Shown here one piece after another: positions 9,797 to 44,575 of a stretch of 54,636 nucleotides of DNA (position 1 is the first letter of the stretch; the number at the start of each line of letters is the position of its first letter). The notes under the pieces were generated by a model. It saw only the letters and a program-made list of their open reading frames with translations. It made no database searches and was not told where the DNA came from. The DNA is from an uncultured Dehalococcoidales bacterium (lineage in GTDB: Bacteria; Chloroflexota; Dehalococcoidia; Lucifugimonadales; Lucifugimonadaceae), in assembly GCA_964435915.1 (NCBI GenBank), contig CAYTAO010000004.1, positions 226 to 54,861 on the forward strand, written 5' to 3'. The position numbers were made by a program, and so were the translations under genes.

Positions 9797-9821
9797 TGTC
9801 ACCCCGATGAAAATCGAGGTC
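9797..9821 (+). repeat. TGTC-tagged REP-like hairpin
   Basis: TGTC-ACCCCGAT-GAAA-ATCGAGGT-C, 7/8-bp stem, 23 nt before the GIY-YIG relic. Confidence 0.55.
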
Positions 9822-9844
9822 AAGCAAACCCACTTCACTAACGA

Positions 9845-9949
9845 ATGAACCACGAGGCACGTTCATATTATGTTTACATGCTCGCTAACAAAGGTCGCAT
9901 AATCTACACGGGCGTAATTGGGGATCTTCATACTCGAACTTGGTAGCAC
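9845..9949 (+). pseudogene. Small GIY-YIG nuclease (YhbQ/UPF0213-like) N-terminal relic
   Basis: MNHEARSYYVYMLANKGRIIYTGVIGDLHTRTW*H matches the YYVYIL..N...LYTGVT.DL..R..QH pattern; TAG at 9944; absent from the ORF track. Confidence 0.8.
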
Positions 9950-10195
9950 ACGTATGCTAGATCAATACCAAGGGGATTGGAGCGTATACCATCGGCATGG
10001 TGATATGCGTGGTGAAGTCGATCGAACGAGAGAAAGTTCGCTTGAAAACGCGGGCTCTTTGGCACGTCGACCCTCTCTACCGGCAGCAATAGTTATCGGA
10101 TTGACCATAATACCGATTTGAATGGTGTTTCGATGGTTCCGGTCAAGACGCTCAGGTTAAGGGTTCGTCTTAGGCTGTTACTGCCGTGCATCCAC

Positions 10196-11224
10196 TCAAT
10201 CCAAAAACTTATCCGCGTGTGCAAATACCTGCGGAAGCCCTCCCGAGTGGATGAAGCAGATGGTTTCTTCAGGGTCGACCCGACCAGCCCGAAACTCGCC
10301 GATCAGTCCTGACATCGACTTACCTGTGTAATTCGGGTCGAGTACGAGTCCTTCGACCTTACCAACCATCATTATGGCTTCTATGACCCGATCGTCTGGC
10401 TCCCCGTATCCCGGACCCATGTAGGCGTTAAGCACGTCGAGATCTGACGCGTCAAGGGAGTGCTCTAGCCCGAACATCTCATCAACCCTTGAGGCGCGAG
10501 TGCCCGTGGTTTTGGGAAAATCCTCGATCTTGCCGGGTGAATACTGAACCGCAGTAGTTCTCCAATCGAGACCTCGATTCTTGCCGTAGAGCTTCAGGCC
10601 TGCAATCGATCGACCCGTAAGGCCCCAGAACCTGACCGGACCCTTAACATCAGCCGCTTCCAACTGTTCTTCGAGTTCTAGGCCAGTCTCGAGAAAGCCG
10701 ATCATGCCCATCACGTCGGCGAACGGATCGTCGGGCATGATATACGGTCTTCCACCCGCCTCAGTTACTTCCGAAAAAATCTTGTCCGCCACCTGTCGTC
10801 CGTACTCGGCAGGAGTCCTGTGTATCTCAGCACCCATCAGTTTGCACAGCAGCAGATTGCCTGTGACTGGCGCAGTAACCATGTCGATCGAAACGAGGTG
10901 GTATTTCAGCCCTACTCTGGCGCAACCTGCCGCGAGAAGTCGAGCCTGATTCGAGTGATAGTGGTTGATGTTAATTACAGTGTCGAATCCACCCTCGATG
11001 ATGTGGGCCATCTCGAACTCGAAGTGCCGACCCTTGTTGCCACCAAATGCCAGGCCCGTAACATCGTCACGCTTCACGAGCATACGGTTCGGAACCGAAA
11101 AACCCTCGTCGATAAGCGTCTGGCGAAGCCGGTCGAGTGCCTCAAGCGGTGTGTTCAGGTGCGACAGCTTGAACCGAGGCAATTCTTTGAGTTTTTGTCG
11201 GATATGTTTTTTAGAAATGGTCAT
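10196..11224 (-). CDS. PLP-dependent D-cysteine desulfhydrase/ACC deaminase family, paralog 2
   Basis: KRDDVTGLAFGGNK, YHSNQAR, LDPNYTGK, FIHSGG. Start placed at ATG 11224; the ORF-track extension runs through REP-like repeats. Confidence 0.88.
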   Translation of the reverse strand: MTISKKHIRQKLKELPRFKLSHLNTPLEALDRLRQTLIDEGFSVPNRMLVKRDDVTGLAFGGNKGRHFEFEMAHIIEGGFDTVININHYHSNQARLLAAGCARVGLKYHLVSIDMVTAPVTGNLLLCKLMGAEIHRTPAEYGRQVADKIFSEVTEAGGRPYIMPDDPFADVMGMIGFLETGLELEEQLEAADVKGPVRFWGLTGRSIAGLKLYGKNRGLDWRTTAVQYSPGKIEDFPKTTGTRASRVDEMFGLEHSLDASDLDVLNAYMGPGYGEPDDRVIEAIMMVGKVEGLVLDPNYTGKSMSGLIGEFRAGRVDPEETICFIHSGGLPQVFAHADKFLD

Positions 11225-11349
11225 TTGTACGAATTGATTTGTCTGAGAACCAAGTCGTCGATTACTTATTCGACTGGGCATGAAAGCGTGGTTTTGCGAG
11301 ATAGATACAAGACGATCCAGCACACGATTGTGACCGACGTTTTCAACGT

Positions 11350-11425
11350 TGTCATCCTGAACTCGATTCAGAATCACGGGTGGGAATATTGCTGTAGTTG
11401 TCACCCTGAGTTCATTTTCAGGATC
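11350..11425 (+). repeat. Two direct copies of a TGTC-tagged palindromic REP-like unit
   Basis: TGTCATCCTGAACTCGATTCAGAATC (11350-11375) and TGTCACCCTGAGTTCATTTTCAGGATC (11399-11425). Confidence 0.7.
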
Positions 11426-21026: not shown

Positions 21027-21847
21027 TGGCCATTCTGAAAGCTGTTTTGTTCGATCTGGACGATACGTTGGTCCCCGAAATGGAGCCCGAACGCGAGGCC
21101 ATGCTAGTTGTATGCGGAATGGCCGCTGACAAGTATGACGCAGATCCGGAAACGATGAGAGTCACTGTAGCAGAGGCCGCAGAGAAATTCTGGGCACAAT
21201 GGAGATCACCCGCTCTGTACGGCTTGATTGCCTATTCGGGGTGGGAAGGACTCTGGGGACCGCCTGACTTGCAGACGATGATCTGGGCAACGACCAGGAG
21301 ACTATCGACAAGCACAAGCGTGATGCCTAGGATGAAGTGATGTCGGCTCACGGAATCGTCGACAACGCCCTCAGAGATAAGATCATCATGAGGCACAGGG
21401 CTGAGAGGGTGAAGCGACTCATTCCGCACGACGTTGTTGAGAAGATGCTTGAGCGCGTAAAAGCAGACTATCCGTTGGCGATCGTTACCAACGGATCACC
21501 GGCAGTGCAGAGATTTAAGCTTGATAAATCCGGTCGCGCCGCGCATTTTTTCCGTCTTCTTTGTCTTCGACGATGTAGGCGTTGGCAAGCCGAATCCGAA
21601 ACCGTTCATATCCGCGTTGAAATCGCTCAATGTCAGTCCGGGCGAATCCGTGATGATAGGCAACTCGTGGAATTCTGATATTCAGGGCGAAGTCAATCTG
21701 GGAATTACGTCGATCTGGTACAACCTCGATCAAGAACCGCAGCCGAGCTATGGAACCCCGCCGACACTCGAGATTGCCTTTCTGGGTGAGGTTCACGGGG
21801 CGATTCGACGGATTGCAAGCGCCCGGCTAACCCCTAACCCGCCCTGA
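21026..21847 (+). pseudogene. HAD-superfamily hydrolase (YjjG-like), frameshifted
   Basis: Motif I FDLDDTL, motif II IVTNG and motif III/IV GKPNP...VMIGNS...DIQG lie in successive broken pieces; frameshifts near 21270 and 21550; TAG at 21328. Confidence 0.85.
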
Positions 21848-21855
21848 ACGATCTG

Positions 21856-22539
21856 TTATTTTCGCGCTATGTCGCCAAGTGCCAGAGTGTGTGAAGAATC
21901 GTTGATCGAACCGATGCTCCACCCGAGCTTTCCGAACCGAAATCGGCTAATGGAGCAGTTGAACAGATCGGACCGCATCGCCAATCGGTTGTCGATTCCG
22001 GCAATGTAGTGGAACAATGTCCGTATCGTGCCGCCGTGACTCACAATCGCGATTGTGTGTGGTCCTGGCTTTTCGTACCACTCAGGGTTGAAAATAATCT
22101 CGTCCTCGATCCAGTTCGAAGCTCGCCGTTCTACCGACCGCAGCGTCTCGTGATCGGGGTCTTTGAAAAACCGTCCCTTCTCGGCTCTAACTATGAAATC
22201 GTCAGGGGTCATCACGTACTTGTCGAATTTTTCTCGCTCAGGGGAAGGTTGCTGTTCAATAATGTCGTCGACCTGCTCGAATTCAGCGTCTGGGATGCCC
22301 ATCGCTCTCAGAACGCCCTCGGTCGTCTGAACGGCTCGCGTGAGTGACGATGAGTAAATCTTGTCGAACTTCACACCTTCGCGCCCAAGCCGTTCGCCGG
22401 CAGCTTCAGCCTGCCTGTGACCACGGTCGGTCATCGGGGCGTTGGCGCCAAGGGCTATTGCCATCCCGGGATTTACATTCGACTCGGATTCACCGTGTCT
22501 GATGAAGTAAAAATCGAATTCGATGTTCTCGTGAATCAA
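21856..22539 (-). CDS. Histidine phosphatase (phosphoglycerate mutase-like), paralog 1
   Basis: FIRHGES, YSSSLTRAVQT, IVSHGG, NCSIS; GGAG RBS and TTG start. Confidence 0.92.
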   Translation of the reverse strand: MIHENIEFDFYFIRHGESESNVNPGMAIALGANAPMTDRGHRQAEAAGERLGREGVKFDKIYSSSLTRAVQTTEGVLRAMGIPDAEFEQVDDIIEQQPSPEREKFDKYVMTPDDFIVRAEKGRFFKDPDHETLRSVERRASNWIEDEIIFNPEWYEKPGPHTIAIVSHGGTIRTLFHYIAGIDNRLAMRSDLFNCSISRFRFGKLGWSIGSINDSSHTLALGDIARK

Positions 22540-22710
22540 ATCGTTATCTCCCAGAGTGTTGATCGCCAGCCGCGAGCAAAATCAGTAATTGAACACTATC
22601 ACCTAGGATCCCTCCGCTCCGTTCTGCGGTAGCCGACCCGATGATAATCGATTCTACTCGCTAGGGATGGTGAAGTTGAGAACGCGAAGTTTGCGGCCGT
22701 ATAACAAGCC

Positions 22711-23427
22711 CTAGTTAACCCCGGTACTGACCTGAACAATTTTGTCGTCTCTTACGATGTCGCCAAGTGCAAGTGTGTGTGACGCGTCGTTGATTGAATT
22801 GATCGTCCACCCTAGTGACCCGAATCCGATTCGGCTGATTGAGCAGTTGAAAATATCGGTTCGTTCGAGCAAGCGGTTGTCCATACCTGTGATGTAGTGC
22901 AGAAAAGCCCTCATAGTGTGCCCGTGACTCACGATGGCAATAGTGTGGGTGCCTGGCTTCTCGTACCACTTCGGGTTGTAGATGATTTCGTCTTCAAGCC
23001 AGTTCGATGACCGACGCTCAACTTCTCTCATCGTCTCACCGTCGGCGGGTTTGAAGAACTGACCCTTCTCGGCCATGAGCAGACGGATCTTGGGCGTAAT
23101 GACATCTTTGGACAGCTTGCCCCGCCACGCGGGTGTTTGCTTTTCGATGATCTGATCAACGCGTTCGAAATCGTTATTCGGACTGCCCATTCCACGTAAG
23201 ATACCCTCGGTCGTCTGAACGGCTCGTGTGAGTGACGATGAGTAGATTTTGTCGAACTTGACGCCCTCGTTGGTGAGTCTGGCGCCAGCTGCTTCCGACT
23301 GTTTGTGACCACGGTCGGTCATAGGGGCATTGAAGTTAACACCCGCAGCTATGCCGGGAGTTACGTTCGACTGTGATTCACCGTGCCTGATGAAGTAGAA
23401 ATCGAATTCGACGTTATCGTGAATCAA
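22711..23427 (-). CDS. Histidine phosphatase, paralog 2
   Basis: Same motifs; start set to TTG 23427 (GGAG RBS) to match paralog 1. Confidence 0.9.
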   Translation of the reverse strand: MIHDNVEFDFYFIRHGESQSNVTPGIAAGVNFNAPMTDRGHKQSEAAGARLTNEGVKFDKIYSSSLTRAVQTTEGILRGMGSPNNDFERVDQIIEKQTPAWRGKLSKDVITPKIRLLMAEKGQFFKPADGETMREVERRSSNWLEDEIIYNPKWYEKPGTHTIAIVSHGHTMRAFLHYITGMDNRLLERTDIFNCSISRIGFGSLGWTINSINDASHTLALGDIVRDDKIVQVSTGVN

Positions 23428-23642
23428 GTACGGAATCTCCAGCGGGTGCTTATGATCAGCCGAAAACAAAAACGGCAAAGCGAACAATATCACCGTAGGG
23501 TGATTCCGTGTGCCGAAAGCGGCCCGGTTACGGGGCGAGGAACGTGGGTTCTCTTAATTGTTCGGGTACTATTACGCACCGCGTACCGGTGGCGGTTTAA
23601 TCGTTGTTCATCACATATAAATCAGTTATTTAAGAGGAAGTC

Positions 23643-26892: not shown

Positions 26893-28056
26893 ATGGAGTT
26901 GGAATCACCCCTGAATCCGGGTTCGACGATCGGAATAATTGGCGGCGGTCAGCTCGGGCGGATGCTCGCGATTGCAGCGCGCCAGATGGACTACAAAACG
27001 ATCGTACTCGATCCTGACGCAGGTTGTCCGACCGGACAGGTAGCCGATGCCCAGATTCAGGATTCCTATTCGAGTAGAGATGCTGCCCGTCAACTGGCGC
27101 GATCGGCCGACATTCTCACCTACGAGTTCGAGAACGTTGACGCTGACTCGGTGTCTTCTGCAGAAGAAATAACACCAGTTCACCCTTCGCCATCCGTTCT
27201 ACGCACTGCCCAGCACCGGTTGCACGAGAAAAATGCACTCCTTAAAGGCGGAATTTTGGTCGCGCCGTTTCGGGAGATCGAATCACTGACTGATCTGCGA
27301 GAAGCCACTGGTGATCTCGGTTATCCGATGGTCCTCAAGACCGCCACCCAGGGCTATGACGGCAAGGGTCAAGTGATAATCACCAGGGTTGAGGACCTTG
27401 AGCGGTCTTATGAGTTGTTGAGTGCGCATGGCACCGAACTTATCGTTGAGCAGTTCGTACCGTTCAAGATGGAGATTTCGACCATATGTGCTCGAACATC
27501 TGATGGCAAAACAGCGACTTTTCCGCCATCCGAGAACATCCACCGCAATCACATTCTCGATGTTTCGATTGTTCCCGCCAGGCTTCCGGACAGTGTGATT
27601 GAAAACGCCCGGCTACTTGCCGCAGATATAGCGGTGCAGTTGAACGTGGTTGGTCTGATCGCAGTCGAGATGTTCATTACAAAAGAGAACGAAATTCTTG
27701 TGAATGAACTTGCTCCTCGCCCGCATAATTCGGGCCACTACACGATGGACGGGTGCGATACCTCGCAGTTCGAACAGTTGGTACGGGTGCTGGCTGGAAT
27801 GCCGATAGCTGAACCCAAGCTCCACTGTCCAACTGTGATGGTCAATCTACTCGGGGAGGTCTGGGAAGACACCGATGGCAATCCCGATTGGGCTGGTGCG
27901 CTGGAGATGCCGGGAGTCAGCCTGCACCTCTATGGGAAGAAAGAAGCCAGAGTGGGCCGCAAAATGGGGCACATCAACGTGGTGGCCGACAAAGTGGAAG
28001 ATGCGCTCTACATAGCGACAGAAGCCCGCGATAAAGCCTGGCGCCGTACGCGTTAA
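26893..28056 (+). CDS. purK: N5-carboxyaminoimidazole ribonucleotide synthase
   Basis: GGGQLGRM, TYEFENV, GYDGKGQ, NELAPRPHNSGH, RKMGH; follows purE. Confidence 0.97.
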   Translation: MELESPLNPGSTIGIIGGGQLGRMLAIAARQMDYKTIVLDPDAGCPTGQVADAQIQDSYSSRDAARQLARSADILTYEFENVDADSVSSAEEITPVHPSPSVLRTAQHRLHEKNALLKGGILVAPFREIESLTDLREATGDLGYPMVLKTATQGYDGKGQVIITRVEDLERSYELLSAHGTELIVEQFVPFKMEISTICARTSDGKTATFPPSENIHRNHILDVSIVPARLPDSVIENARLLAADIAVQLNVVGLIAVEMFITKENEILVNELAPRPHNSGHYTMDGCDTSQFEQLVRVLAGMPIAEPKLHCPTVMVNLLGEVWEDTDGNPDWAGALEMPGVSLHLYGKKEARVGRKMGHINVVADKVEDALYIATEARDKAWRRTR

Positions 28057-28115
28057 CCTCGCTCGTCGAGCCACCGCTTGTAGAGTCGGATGACCTTTTA
28101 CGCGCATGGATAAAT

Positions 28116-28599
28116 TGTCATTGCGAGGAGTTCTACGACGTGGCAATCAGTGTGCATACGCGTAAACCGTGGCTTTTGAGACACATTGCATGGAGATTCA
28201 GCGCCGGCCAGCCACACTGGCATGATCCGTGAAGCCAGTATCAAATAAACGTCTTAATTGGACACCCGAACGTACGCCGTTTACATTCTGGCGAATGCTC
28301 GCCACACACTTTAGGTCGGAATAACGAACGACCTCATACAACGCGTAATTGGACACAGGTACGGAACTGGATCCAAGTTCACGCGGCTGTACAGCCTTCA
28401 ATCACTCGTCTGGTTTGAGTCCACGAACGATGTTTGGGCTGCGCCCAAGCGCGAAAAACAGATGAAAAGACGGAAGCGCGATCGAAAGCTTGCACTGATC
28501 GAGTCACAGAATTCAAACTAGGATGACTTTTCTCTCGAAATCGGACTACCCACGGCTCAGAGACGCTGATTGCTACGTCTTCGGACTCGTCGCAATGAC
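28116..28599. mobile_element. Putative REP-like element: inverted TGTC-tagged repeats enclosing a GIY-YIG nuclease pseudogene
   Basis: Left repeat 28117-28148 versus the reverse complement of 28568-28599: 27/32 identical. The nuclease relic lies between them. Confidence 0.7.
28258..28569 (+). pseudogene. Full-length small GIY-YIG nuclease (YhbQ/UPF0213-like) with two amber stops
   Basis: MDTRTYAVYILANARHTL*VGITNDLIQRVIGHRYGTGSKFTRLYSLQSLVWFESTNDVWAAPKREKQMKRRKRDRKLALIESQNSN*DDFS; TAG at 28312 (Tyr position) and 28519 (Trp position). Confidence 0.88.
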
Positions 28600-28615: not shown

Positions 28616-29395
28616 CTACTCAGCATCGGGTCGTTTGAACGGTGCTTCTGAGTCGATACGCTCACCTACTTCGGTCAGGCCAATTTCACCGTTGTGAACC
28701 GTGTAGATCTTGTCTGCCATGTCCAGAAGCGTGCGATCGTGCGTGGTCGCTACGATCGACATTTCTTTTTCGAGCACCATCGACTGGAACAACCCGAAAA
28801 TTTTGCCGGCGTTTACGGAGTCGAGTTCACCCGTTGGCTCGTCAGCAAGAATCACACTTGGGCGCATCGCCACAGCCCTGGCGATCGATATTCGTTGTTG
28901 CTCACCGCCGGACAGTTCGTACGGGCGGTGCCTTGCACGCCGACGGAGTCCGACTATCTCAAGGACTTCGTTCGTGCGTTTGGAGCGCTCTGATGCTCCA
29001 ACGCCCGCAATTCGCATGGGCAACTCAACGTTTTCGTAGGCCGAGAGCAACGGTAGCAGTGCGAACGACTGGAACACGACTCCAATGCGGTGCCTTCTCA
29101 GTTGAATGAACTGCTTTTCGTTATAGTTAGACAGATCCTTGCCTTCGAACAACACACGACCCGATGTTGGGTGATCGAGACCTGCGAGAAGATTCAGCAA
29201 CGTGGTTTTACCCGAACCCGATCGCCCCACAAGCGTGATGAATTCACCAAGTCGAACTTCAAGGTCCACGTTCCGAACCGCGTGAACGGTTTCACCCGCC
29301 AACTGATAGTCGCGGGACGCGCTAATCGCCTGTATTATCGGTGCTGAAGTACTCGATGATTCACTGCTGGTGGTTCGCTCAGTCGCCTGACTCAA
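28616..29395 (-). CDS. ABC ATP-binding protein (LolD/FtsE/MacB-like)
   Basis: [28 protein letters not shown]. Confidence 0.93.
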   Translation of the reverse strand: MSQATERTTSSESSSTSAPIIQAISASRDYQLAGETVHAVRNVDLEVRLGEFITLVGRSGSGKTTLLNLLAGLDHPTSGRVLFEGKDLSNYNEKQFIQLRRHRIGVVFQSFALLPLLSAYENVELPMRIAGVGASERSKRTNEVLEIVGLRRRARHRPYELSGGEQQRISIARAVAMRPSVILADEPTGELDSVNAGKIFGLFQSMVLEKEMSIVATTHDRTLLDMADKIYTVHNGEIGLTEVGERIDSEAPFKRPDAE

Positions 29396-36689: not shown

Positions 36690-36805
36690 TTATTAGATCC
36701 TGAGCAAATAAGTAAGTTGGGAACGGTTTGAAGAATCAGATGCAAAGTGTAGTCAATGGTTGCTGGCTGTGGTTTGAGTGTTGGGGTGAACCTAGTCTGT
36801 CGTCC

Positions 36806-36821
36806 CTCCTCGCAATGACAA
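36806..36821 (-). repeat. Half copy of the TGTCATTGCGAGGAG repeat
   Basis: Reverse complement TTGTCATTGCGAGGAG is an exact 16-nt match to 28115-28130. Confidence 0.65.
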
Positions 36822-36986
36822 AACATTCAATCCGGCGGCTGAATTCGGCGACTCCAGCACACGTTCCCGTGTAGATTATTCCTGTGCAGAATCCAAGTGC
36901 TCTGCCAGTTCGTAAAACGTTCGGCGCTGGGATGTGTAACGATCTACACGTAAAACCTAGCGAAAACGAGTTTCATAAAATACCCG

Positions 36987-44312: not shown

Positions 44313-44475
44313 TATCATTGTGAGGAGTTTTACGACGTGGTACTCACCGGCCAGGGTATCCTGCGTTGCGATTTTTCCAGCACATATCTTGCCATCATGA
44401 CGTTACCCGATTCGCACATCTACCGCGAGTTGACCATCGATTGCCGCGTCAGCCTGTGGCTTCTTCGCATTGACA
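44313..44475. repeat. Gene-less inverted doublet (REPIN-like) of the TGTCATTGCGAGGAG...GGCAATC repeat
   Basis: 44313-44345 matches 28116-28148 at 28/33. The reverse complement of 44439-44475 is TGTCAATGCGAAGAAGCCACAGGCTGACGCGGCAATC. Spacer 93 nt. Confidence 0.75.
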
Positions 44476-44575
44476 GAGCAGTAACCCAAATCCCAAAACC
44501 CCAACTATAATTTCCCGAGTTCATGAAGCGCGATTATGCACCTTGTACGAAAATCCCGAACTTGTGAGTTAAAAC

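What the first reader, a model, noticed from the sequence alone, without database searches (positions are those of the whole stretch)
28116..28599. GIY-YIG nuclease gene enclosed by inverted REP-like repeats: candidate autonomous unit of a repeat-propagation system
Seen: a 484-nt unit between purK and the ABC operon has 32-nt inverted ends (27/32 identical, each an imperfect ATTGC...GCAAT palindrome led by GTC). It contains a complete ~103-codon GIY-YIG gene killed by two ambers, whose final stop overlaps the right repeat. The same repeat recurs without the gene at 44313-44475 and 36806-36821. Established: REP/REPIN families are maintained by HUH tyrosine transposases (RAYT) flanked by their REPs. 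Inference: an analogous autonomous/non-autonomous system using a stand-alone GIY-YIG nuclease; to my knowledge its mechanism is uncharacterised.
Basis: partly seen in the sequence, partly recalled or inferred. Interest (0 to 1): 0.8.

Follow-up and report, generated by a model that had tools for sequence, protein, structure and literature searches.

The report
Dead Ssn nuclease between hairpin repeats
A broken copy of a tiny DNA-cutting gene of the Ssn family (described in 2025) sits between two inverted hairpin repeats that are also scattered gene-less through this genome and its relatives; the layout is already published, but this hairpin type escapes the published search pattern, and the relatives suggest the enzyme likely spreads such repeats.

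Summary
Observation confirmed: inverted arms (27/32 identical) enclose a 103-codon GIY-YIG frame (28258-28569) with two TAG stops; 17 arm-like hairpins lie in the genome. The arrangement is not new. The protein is 42% identical (96% cover, E 2e-14) to the gonococcal orthologue of SsnA, the hairpin-specific ssDNA nuclease of Chenal et al. 2025, who described hairpin-ssnA-hairpin units and proposed a REP/RAYT-like origin. The scan has noted such units before (37 findings, other genomes).

This locus adds a TGTC-tagged, bulged hairpin missed by the published SRM pattern (0 of 17; 0 of 49 genus copies), and genus evidence for mobility. The purK-ABC site lacks the gene in 24 of 24 relatives (14 empty, 7 gene-less hairpins). 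49 Ssn copies occupy about 23 sites, hairpin type tracks protein clade, and no Y1/RAYT transposase was found in 29 genomes.

Against tidy transposition: no target duplication, filled/empty differences mostly run 13-86 nt past the tags, and the nuclease-repeat correlation is untestable once kinship is counted. The window copy is a decaying pseudogene. Verdict: new variant of a known system; nuclease-driven spread is likely but unproven.

The parts
28116..28148 (+). Left hairpin ('type A'): TGTC tag, ATTGC/GCAAT lower stem, internal loop, short upper stem-loop, terminal C
28258..28569 (+). Ssn-family GIY-YIG pseudogene, 103 codons, TTG start, TGA overlapping the right hairpin
28312..28314 (+). 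TAG at codon 19, the column of SsnA Y17 (catalytic in Chenal 2025); no other letter listed here in the laid strains X7, X8, X10
28519..28521 (+). TAG at codon 88 (invariant Trp column); polymorphic, TGG in runs X7 and X12
28568..28599 (-). Right hairpin, inverted (tags outward, head-head); tag decayed to GGTC
44313..44477 (.). Decayed gene-less head-head dimer of the same hairpin (left arm above, right arm just below the control threshold)
36799..36822 (-). Half copy of the hairpin (16/16 identical to the left arm start)
26893..28056 (+). purK, left neighbour (not part of the unit)
28616..29395 (-). ABC ATPase, right neighbour, convergent (not part of the unit)

Best explanation
This is a dead copy of an Ssn nuclease gene between its two hairpin repeats, likely the gene-bearing form of a selfish element whose enzyme would nick single-stranded DNA just 5' of the hairpin tag and so likely seed copies of the hairpins, with or without the gene, at new sites. 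Shown here: family placement, pseudogene state, gene-less dimers, filled and empty sites in relatives, pairing of hairpin type with protein clade. Taken from the paper (for Neisseria and Wolbachia enzymes): ssDNA-only cutting; from its 20-nt product and oligo sequence I count the cut 5 nt 5' of the GTC. By analogy the cuts would fall near 28111/28112 on the top strand and 28604/28605 on the bottom strand, outside both ends. Inferred: GIY-YIG enzymes hydrolyse and form no covalent DNA-tyrosine link (general knowledge), so they cannot join strands as HUH/RAYT enzymes do; movement would rely on host repair or replication restarting from the nick and copying a hairpin-bearing segment with variable flanks. 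That fits the lack of target duplications, the ragged junctions and the piling-up of different elements at the same intergenic sites.
For: (1) Family: 42% identity over 90 aa to the 94-aa, NTS-flanked gonococcal protein with Y6/Y17/E64; intact clade relatives 42-50%; a YazA-type control 30%. It meets the paper's tblastn rule, E 2.1e-14, 96% cover. It shares a supported clade with that protein (98/91 and 100/97), apart from YazA- and Slx1-like rows; grouping it with those is rejected, p-AU 0.02. (2) Mobility: none of 24 relatives read at purK-ABC has the gene: 14 empty, 7 gene-less type-A hairpins, 3 other DNA. The intact unit of G013 is absent at the orthologous site in 5 of 5 genomes compared, including sister G005. 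49 Ssn-clade copies fall into about 23 flank clusters; clade A has 7 copies at 5 sites. (3) Pairing: 46 of 49 copies have a hairpin on at least one side, 36 on both; four hairpin labels need 3 changes on the protein tree, the minimum, against 24 when shuffled. In 77 loci from many phyla, strict patterns occur on both sides in 42, in the wrong orientation in 4, and 1 kb away in 0 of 61. (4) Gene-less arms resemble the gene's 3' end in register (mean 6.4-6.6/20 against 5.0 shuffled, 0 of 1000). (5) No PF01797 in 29 of 29 genomes, one of them closed; the control rings in 6 of 14. (6) Decay: differences to run X12 are 11 non-synonymous to 1 synonymous in the gene and 3 to 10 in the flanking genes (listed rows only); 17 of 49 copies have internal stops. 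(7) Abundance: Spearman 0.72 over 29 genomes; in 150 other genomes of the order Ssn is found in 14 of 20 with type-A hairpins and 40 of 130 without.
Against: No movement or cutting was observed. No target-site duplication in 29 dimers (mean longest repeat 1.66 against 1.62 shuffled). In 7 elements with closely abutting filled/empty alignments the extra DNA runs 13-86 nt beyond the tag; only 2 other cases come within 2-5 nt, each on one side, and losses by deletion could explain some. The two genomes with most type-A hairpins and intact genes (G013 53, G005 47) are sisters, one event; independent pairs number 2-6 and are not significant. G022 has 37 type-A hairpins but no clade-A gene found (87% complete). 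One clade-C site is kept in 11 genomes plus this window, i.e. long vertical retention. Across phyla type A sits on several protein branches (11 changes, poorly resolved tree, loose labels). Spacers of gene-less dimers show no blastn match to the gene body. DDE transposases were not searched.
Confidence: 0.6

Rival explanations
1. Host-domesticated nuclease: Ssn is kept to restrict or tune incoming single-stranded DNA, as in Neisseria, and the hairpins spread by other means (recombination, selection as RNA hairpins near gene ends).
For: Chenal 2025 showed that SsnA lowers transformation by NTS-bearing DNA. One site is held across 11-12 genomes. ComEC is found in 12 of 29 genomes, 9 of them with a GIY-YIG match. 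15 of 17 hairpins lie between long ORFs.
Against: ComEC was not found in G000 (93% complete), G005 (92%) or G013 (71%). Copies are many, scattered and often broken (17 of 49), and the window copy decays. A host function does not explain why each clade stays wrapped in its own hairpin.
Confidence: 0.2
2. The gene is a homing parasite of the repeats: hairpin dimers arise first, and the Ssn gene converts into existing dimers using the arms as homology.
For: purK-ABC holds gene-less type-A hairpins in 7 relatives and the gene only here. Mixed-type arms and two different clades in one intergenic region occur. The inner arms of the G013/G005 dimers resemble the gene-bearing unit's ends (z about 4-5).
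Against: The intact G013 unit lies at a site with no hairpin in sister G005 and in three further genomes. The window's 5' inner arm resembles the G005/G013 dimers no more than arms from other sites (z 1.2-2.8 against up to 2.7).
Confidence: 0.12
3. A RAYT/IS200 or other transposase moves the hairpins and the GIY-YIG gene is a passenger.
For: The layout matches REP/RAYT units; Di Nocera 2013 suggested CGTC repeats might use a range of transposases.
Against: PF01797 in 0 of 29 genomes; no target duplication; hairpin type follows the GIY-YIG clade.
Confidence: 0.08

Closest known systems
Ssn nucleases (SsnA, CDD cd10448) with NTS/SRM hairpins; Chenal et al. 2025, PMC11893778
   Same: Single-domain ~100-aa GIY-YIG protein in the SsnA clade; gene between inverted hairpins; GTC tag 5' of the stem, AT first pairs, conserved C 3' of the stem (98 of 102 hairpins); dispersed, mostly intergenic copies.
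   Different: The hairpin has a 5-bp lower stem, an internal loop and a variable upper stem, and does not match the SRM pattern (0 of 17 here; 0 of 49 genus copies have an SRM nearby). The protein has a ~12-residue C-terminal tail ending in the hairpin. The copy is a pseudogene; several clades with different hairpins share one genome; ComEC was not found.
CGTC-tagged REP superfamily; Di Nocera et al. 2013, PMC3733652
   Same: CGTC/TGTC tag, AT first stem pairs, short 3' tail, mostly head-head dimers, no linked transposase.
   Different: Their stems are 8-9 bp with 4-5 nt loops; type A is bulged. The repeat-encoded peptides listed for CGTC-1, -3 and -4 in supplement file 3 part 2 do not fit it; CGTC-2 and Figure 2 could not be seen. 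The paper does not mention GIY-YIG in its main text.
REP/REPIN with RAYT (Y1 HUH transposase)
   Same: Enzyme gene flanked by inverted tagged hairpins; gene-less dimers; enzyme acts on ssDNA hairpins.
   Different: Different enzyme class (PF01541, not PF01797); no covalent intermediate expected (recalled); TGTC rather than GTAG tag; no Y1 enzyme found in the genus.
UPF0213 (YazA/YhbQ) and Slx1-like stand-alone GIY-YIG proteins
   Same: Same fold; best PDB matches 1zg2 and Slx1.
   Different: Separate branches; the two plasmid-collection controls have no flanking inverted repeats.

Membership tests
Ssn family (Chenal 2025) | SsnA homolog by tblastn E<1e-10 over >75% of the query | tested here: met
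   E 2.1e-14, 96% cover, using the N. gonorrhoeae orthologue (94 aa, Y6/Y17/E64, NTS-flanked) because the N. meningitidis protein was not at hand
Ssn family (Chenal 2025) | Falls in the clade with SsnA, apart from other GIY-YIG subfamilies | tested here: met
   100/97, 98/91; p-AU 0.02; about 90 columns, few outgroups
Ssn family (Chenal 2025) | Top CDD hit cd10448 | not testable with these tools
Ssn family (Chenal 2025) | Single domain, under 150 aa | tested here: met
   103 codons, PF01541 only; model of the intact relative pLDDT 86.5, GIY-YIG fold
Ssn family (Chenal 2025) | Catalytic Y6, Y17, E64 present | tested here: not met
   Window copy: Y9 and E66 kept, the Y17 column is TAG; intact relatives keep all three
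Ssn family (Chenal 2025) | Flanked on both sides by hairpin repeats | tested here: met
SRM motif as published | Match to the degenerate SRM search pattern | tested here: not met
   0 of 2 arms, 0 of 17 genome hairpins; the pattern does find the Neisseria control
Ssn family (Chenal 2025) | Site-specific cutting of ssDNA 5' of the hairpin | not testable with these tools
   needs purified protein
CGTC REP superfamily (Di Nocera 2013) | CGTC/TGTC tag, AT first pairs, head-head dimers | tested here: met
   T before GTC in 92 of 102 hairpins; 29 head-head pairs
CGTC REP superfamily (Di Nocera 2013) | 8-9 bp stem with 4-5 nt loop (families 1-4) | tested here: not met
   bulged hairpin; family 2 consensus not seen
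REP/RAYT | Y1 HUH transposase next to the repeats | tested here: not met
   0 of 29 genomes
IS/MITE (cut-and-paste) | Target-site duplication and precise ends | tested here: not met
   one 8-9 bp direct repeat at one site

The most novel reading that the evidence does not exclude
Ssn-hairpin units are a class of selfish element moved by a purely hydrolytic ssDNA nickase plus host repair, and are the missing enzyme of the CGTC/TGTC REP superfamily; several clades, each locked to its own hairpin, coexist and turn over in one genus with no Y1 transposase, and the range of hairpins is far wider than the published SRM pattern.
Probability: 0.5. Interest if true: 0.65.

Novelty: new variant of a known kind. 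Interest (0 to 1): 0.35.

Why it matters
The locus itself is a dead gene of a published family, so its own value is modest. Its relatives matter more. Di Nocera 2013 left open what spreads CGTC repeats, and Chenal 2025 only hypothesised that hairpin-ssnA-hairpin is a mobile unit. This genus offers matched, testable pairs (an intact clade-A gene with its two hairpins and an empty site in a sister genome; other clades with other hairpins) and no RAYT was found in it. It also offers new candidate ssDNA-cutting specificities that the published motif misses.

Tried and rejected
Stop-codon recoding: rejected; the two TAGs stand at a Tyr and a Trp column, the second is TGG in two other runs, and the neighbouring ABC gene ends in TAG. 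Assembly error: rejected; runs of other studies carry the unit at the same site with the first stop unchanged (the table hides 18 rows). Excised or empty alleles in reads: no joints in 8 runs, but 7 were contigs and the raw run gave 5 reads, so this says nothing. Expression: the RNA run's contigs did not cover the gene; not informative. Stable canonical hairpin: not supported (spacer folding median z -0.6); one position pair covaries (G/A in 55, A with C or T in 5 of 9), hinting at non-canonical pairs, related copies not corrected for. Target duplication and precise ends: not found (one search was too strict and returned one site). Common origin of the window unit and the G005/G013 purK dimers: undecided. 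Kinship-corrected correlation: too few pairs. Rfam: no match in the window. No solved Ssn structure. Searches used a wrong frame and were discarded. The look-up by relatives gave an unrelated note; by sequence nothing. No complex prediction was run.

Full report
OBSERVATION. The unit is as described. Inverted arms lie at 28117-28153 and 28563-28599 (37 nt, 84%); their 32-nt cores agree at 27 positions. Between them a frame from TTG 28258 to TGA 28569 gives 103 codons with TAG at codons 19 and 88 and matches Pfam GIY-YIG above its cut-off. The unit sits between convergent purK and ABC-ATPase genes and has 50.8% G+C against 52.6% for the genome. A profile built from relatives' arms finds 17 hairpins in the 2.26-Mb assembly above the best reversed-genome score; 15 of 17 lie between long ORFs. 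The closest named relatives of the protein are Dehalococcoidia MAGs, and the stretch is held by marine metagenomes.

STATE OF THE GENE. It is a decaying pseudogene. Besides the stops it has changed W72, L91 and I69, invariant or nearly so in 47 intact relatives. Contigs of runs X7 and X12 carry the same unit at the same site; both have TGG at codon 88, X7 has a one-base loss, and no other letter is listed at the first stop (18 rows are hidden). Listed differences to X12 are 11 non-synonymous to 1 synonymous in the gene and 3 to 10 in the flanking genes.

WHAT IT IS. Notes from this scan pointed to Chenal et al. 2025 (PMC11893778). I read parts 1-6 of 11 (abstract to most methods), passages, one supplement whole and two searches over its supplements. 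It shows that SsnA and three homologs cut only ssDNA a few bases 5' of a CGTC-led hairpin, that such hairpins flank ssnA homologs on both sides in 42% of cases, and it likens hairpin-ssnA-hairpin to IS200/REP units as a hypothesis. A plasmid-collection search with an intact relative returned a N. gonorrhoeae record; its protein has 94 residues with Y6, Y17 and E64 and NTS repeats on both sides, so I take it as the SsnA orthologue. The window protein is 42% identical to it over 90 residues, intact clade relatives 42-50%, a YazA-type control 30%. It meets the paper's homolog rule (E 2.1e-14, 96% cover) and shares supported branches with it; forcing it among YazA-, Slx1-like and other rows is rejected (p-AU 0.02). 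A model of the intact relative has the GIY-YIG fold. The family is large: 4,205 representatives at E 1e-10 or better. The first stop removes the Y17 equivalent.

THE HAIRPIN. It keeps the features the paper found important: a tag 5' of the stem (T before GTC in 92 of 102 copies) and the C after it (98 of 102). But it is bulged and folds no better than shuffles, and the published SRM pattern matches 0 of 17 genome copies and lies near 0 of 49 genus genes, while it does find the Neisseria control. It fits the CGTC/TGTC superfamily of Di Nocera 2013 (PMC3733652; part 2 of 8, passages and supplement file 3 part 2 read) in tag and head-head layout, not in stem geometry; their Figure 2 is not held. 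That paper concludes that CGTC REPs lack a dedicated transposase.

RELATIVES. At purK-ABC, 24 other genomes of the genus could be read: 14 empty, 7 with gene-less type-A hairpins of at least three unrelated spacers, 3 with other DNA, none with the gene. A profile search finds 61 GIY-YIG matches in 17 of 29 genomes. Of these, 49 loci assigned to the Ssn clade fall into about 23 flank clusters; 17 have internal stops, 46 have a hairpin on at least one side and 36 on both. Left out of the 49 were the window-genome duplicate count, two halves of one split gene counted once, seven rows of another branch and three unflanked outliers. Hairpin type (A, B, C, and E for the other branch; labels set by me from the flanks) needs 3 changes on the protein tree, the minimum; near kin share labels, so this shows pairing, not co-evolution. 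An intact clade-A unit in G013 is missing at the orthologous site in 5 of 5 genomes compared. Gene-less arms share an inner motif in register with the gene's last codons. Among 77 of the 79 loci (the two best, of the window's own clade, left out), strict patterns occur on both sides in 42, on one in 16, on none in 19; controls give 4 and 0. Y1 transposases were found in 0 of 29 genomes, ComEC in 12 of 29 and not in this genome.

ABUNDANCE. Exact type-A counts run from 0 to 53, type C from 0 to 102. Repeat totals rise with GIY-YIG matches (Spearman 0.72; medians 19 and 1.5), and in 150 other genomes of the order Ssn is found in 14 of 20 with type A and 40 of 130 without. Against: the two richest genomes are sisters, independent pairs are too few, G022 has 37 type-A copies without a found clade-A gene, and across phyla type A lies on several branches of a poorly resolved tree.

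HOW IT LIKELY MOVES. There is no target duplication in 29 head-head pairs. Among six close genomes, 67 elements gave 210 ortholog comparisons, 51 lacking any hairpin, 41 of them shorter; in the 7 elements whose flank alignments nearly abut, the extra DNA reaches 13-86 nt beyond the tag (alignment ends are imprecise in diverged spacers). Two further sites come within 2-5 nt of the tag on one side, one with an 8-9 bp direct repeat. This argues against clean cut-and-paste and fits nick-primed copying by host repair, which is what a hydrolytic nuclease would need (inference; chemistry recalled). Deletion from filled ancestors remains possible for several sites.

NOVELTY. The enzyme family, the layout and the RAYT analogy are in print. 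Nine searches of the open library (listings only) found no paper showing Ssn-driven mobility or this hairpin; subscription papers are not covered. The scan holds 37 similar findings on other genomes. I file it as a new variant of the Ssn/SRM kind: member by protein, outside the published motif by hairpin, dead at this locus. Interest 0.35.

Noticed in passing
window 9797-9955: A second, more decayed Ssn remnant (clade C) with its upstream hairpin at 9797-9824; the same site holds a clade-C gene in 11 other genomes of the genus.
   Followed up: partly
window 11350-11425: Two type-C hairpins in direct (head-tail) order, inside the 5' end of the mechanically called ORF 10196-11404; the true start may lie downstream.
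   Followed up: no
G000:C66:9187-9441 (L050): Third Ssn pseudogene of this genome, clade B, between inverted hairpins of another type.
   Followed up: partly
L185-L193 (genus genomes): A separate GIY-YIG branch, outside the SsnA clade, is also flanked by inverted TGTC-led hairpins of its own type (7 of 7 rows show an inverted repeat).
   Followed up: partly
L030, L032: A 35-50 bp copy of the right hairpin with its flanks is repeated directly upstream of the left hairpin; L033 has a type-B left arm and a type-C right arm.
   Followed up: no
L005, L006 (purK-ABC site of G011, G022): A type-C dimer is nested inside or beside a type-A dimer: elements pile up at one site.
   Followed up: partly
P0026, P0029, P0033, P0034, P0039, P0069, P0074: Ssn domains appear fused to unrelated enzymes (enoyl-CoA hydratase in about 30 of 120 listed rows, MutS, GluQRS, GyrB, BioA), several with linkers that look like translated hairpins; real fusions or read-through calls.
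   Followed up: partly
window 21828-23493: Two tandem paralogous genes 888 bp apart, 71% alike over 300 nt.
   Followed up: no
L019 (G018 purK-ABC spacer); G000:C35 beside the dimer: Another palindromic repeat type, rich in CCCC/GGGG runs, occupies the same kind of spacer.
   Followed up: no
L053: An Ssn gene with inverted flanks lies between a type IIL restriction gene and DISARM drmA on a Planktothrix plasmid record.
   Followed up: no
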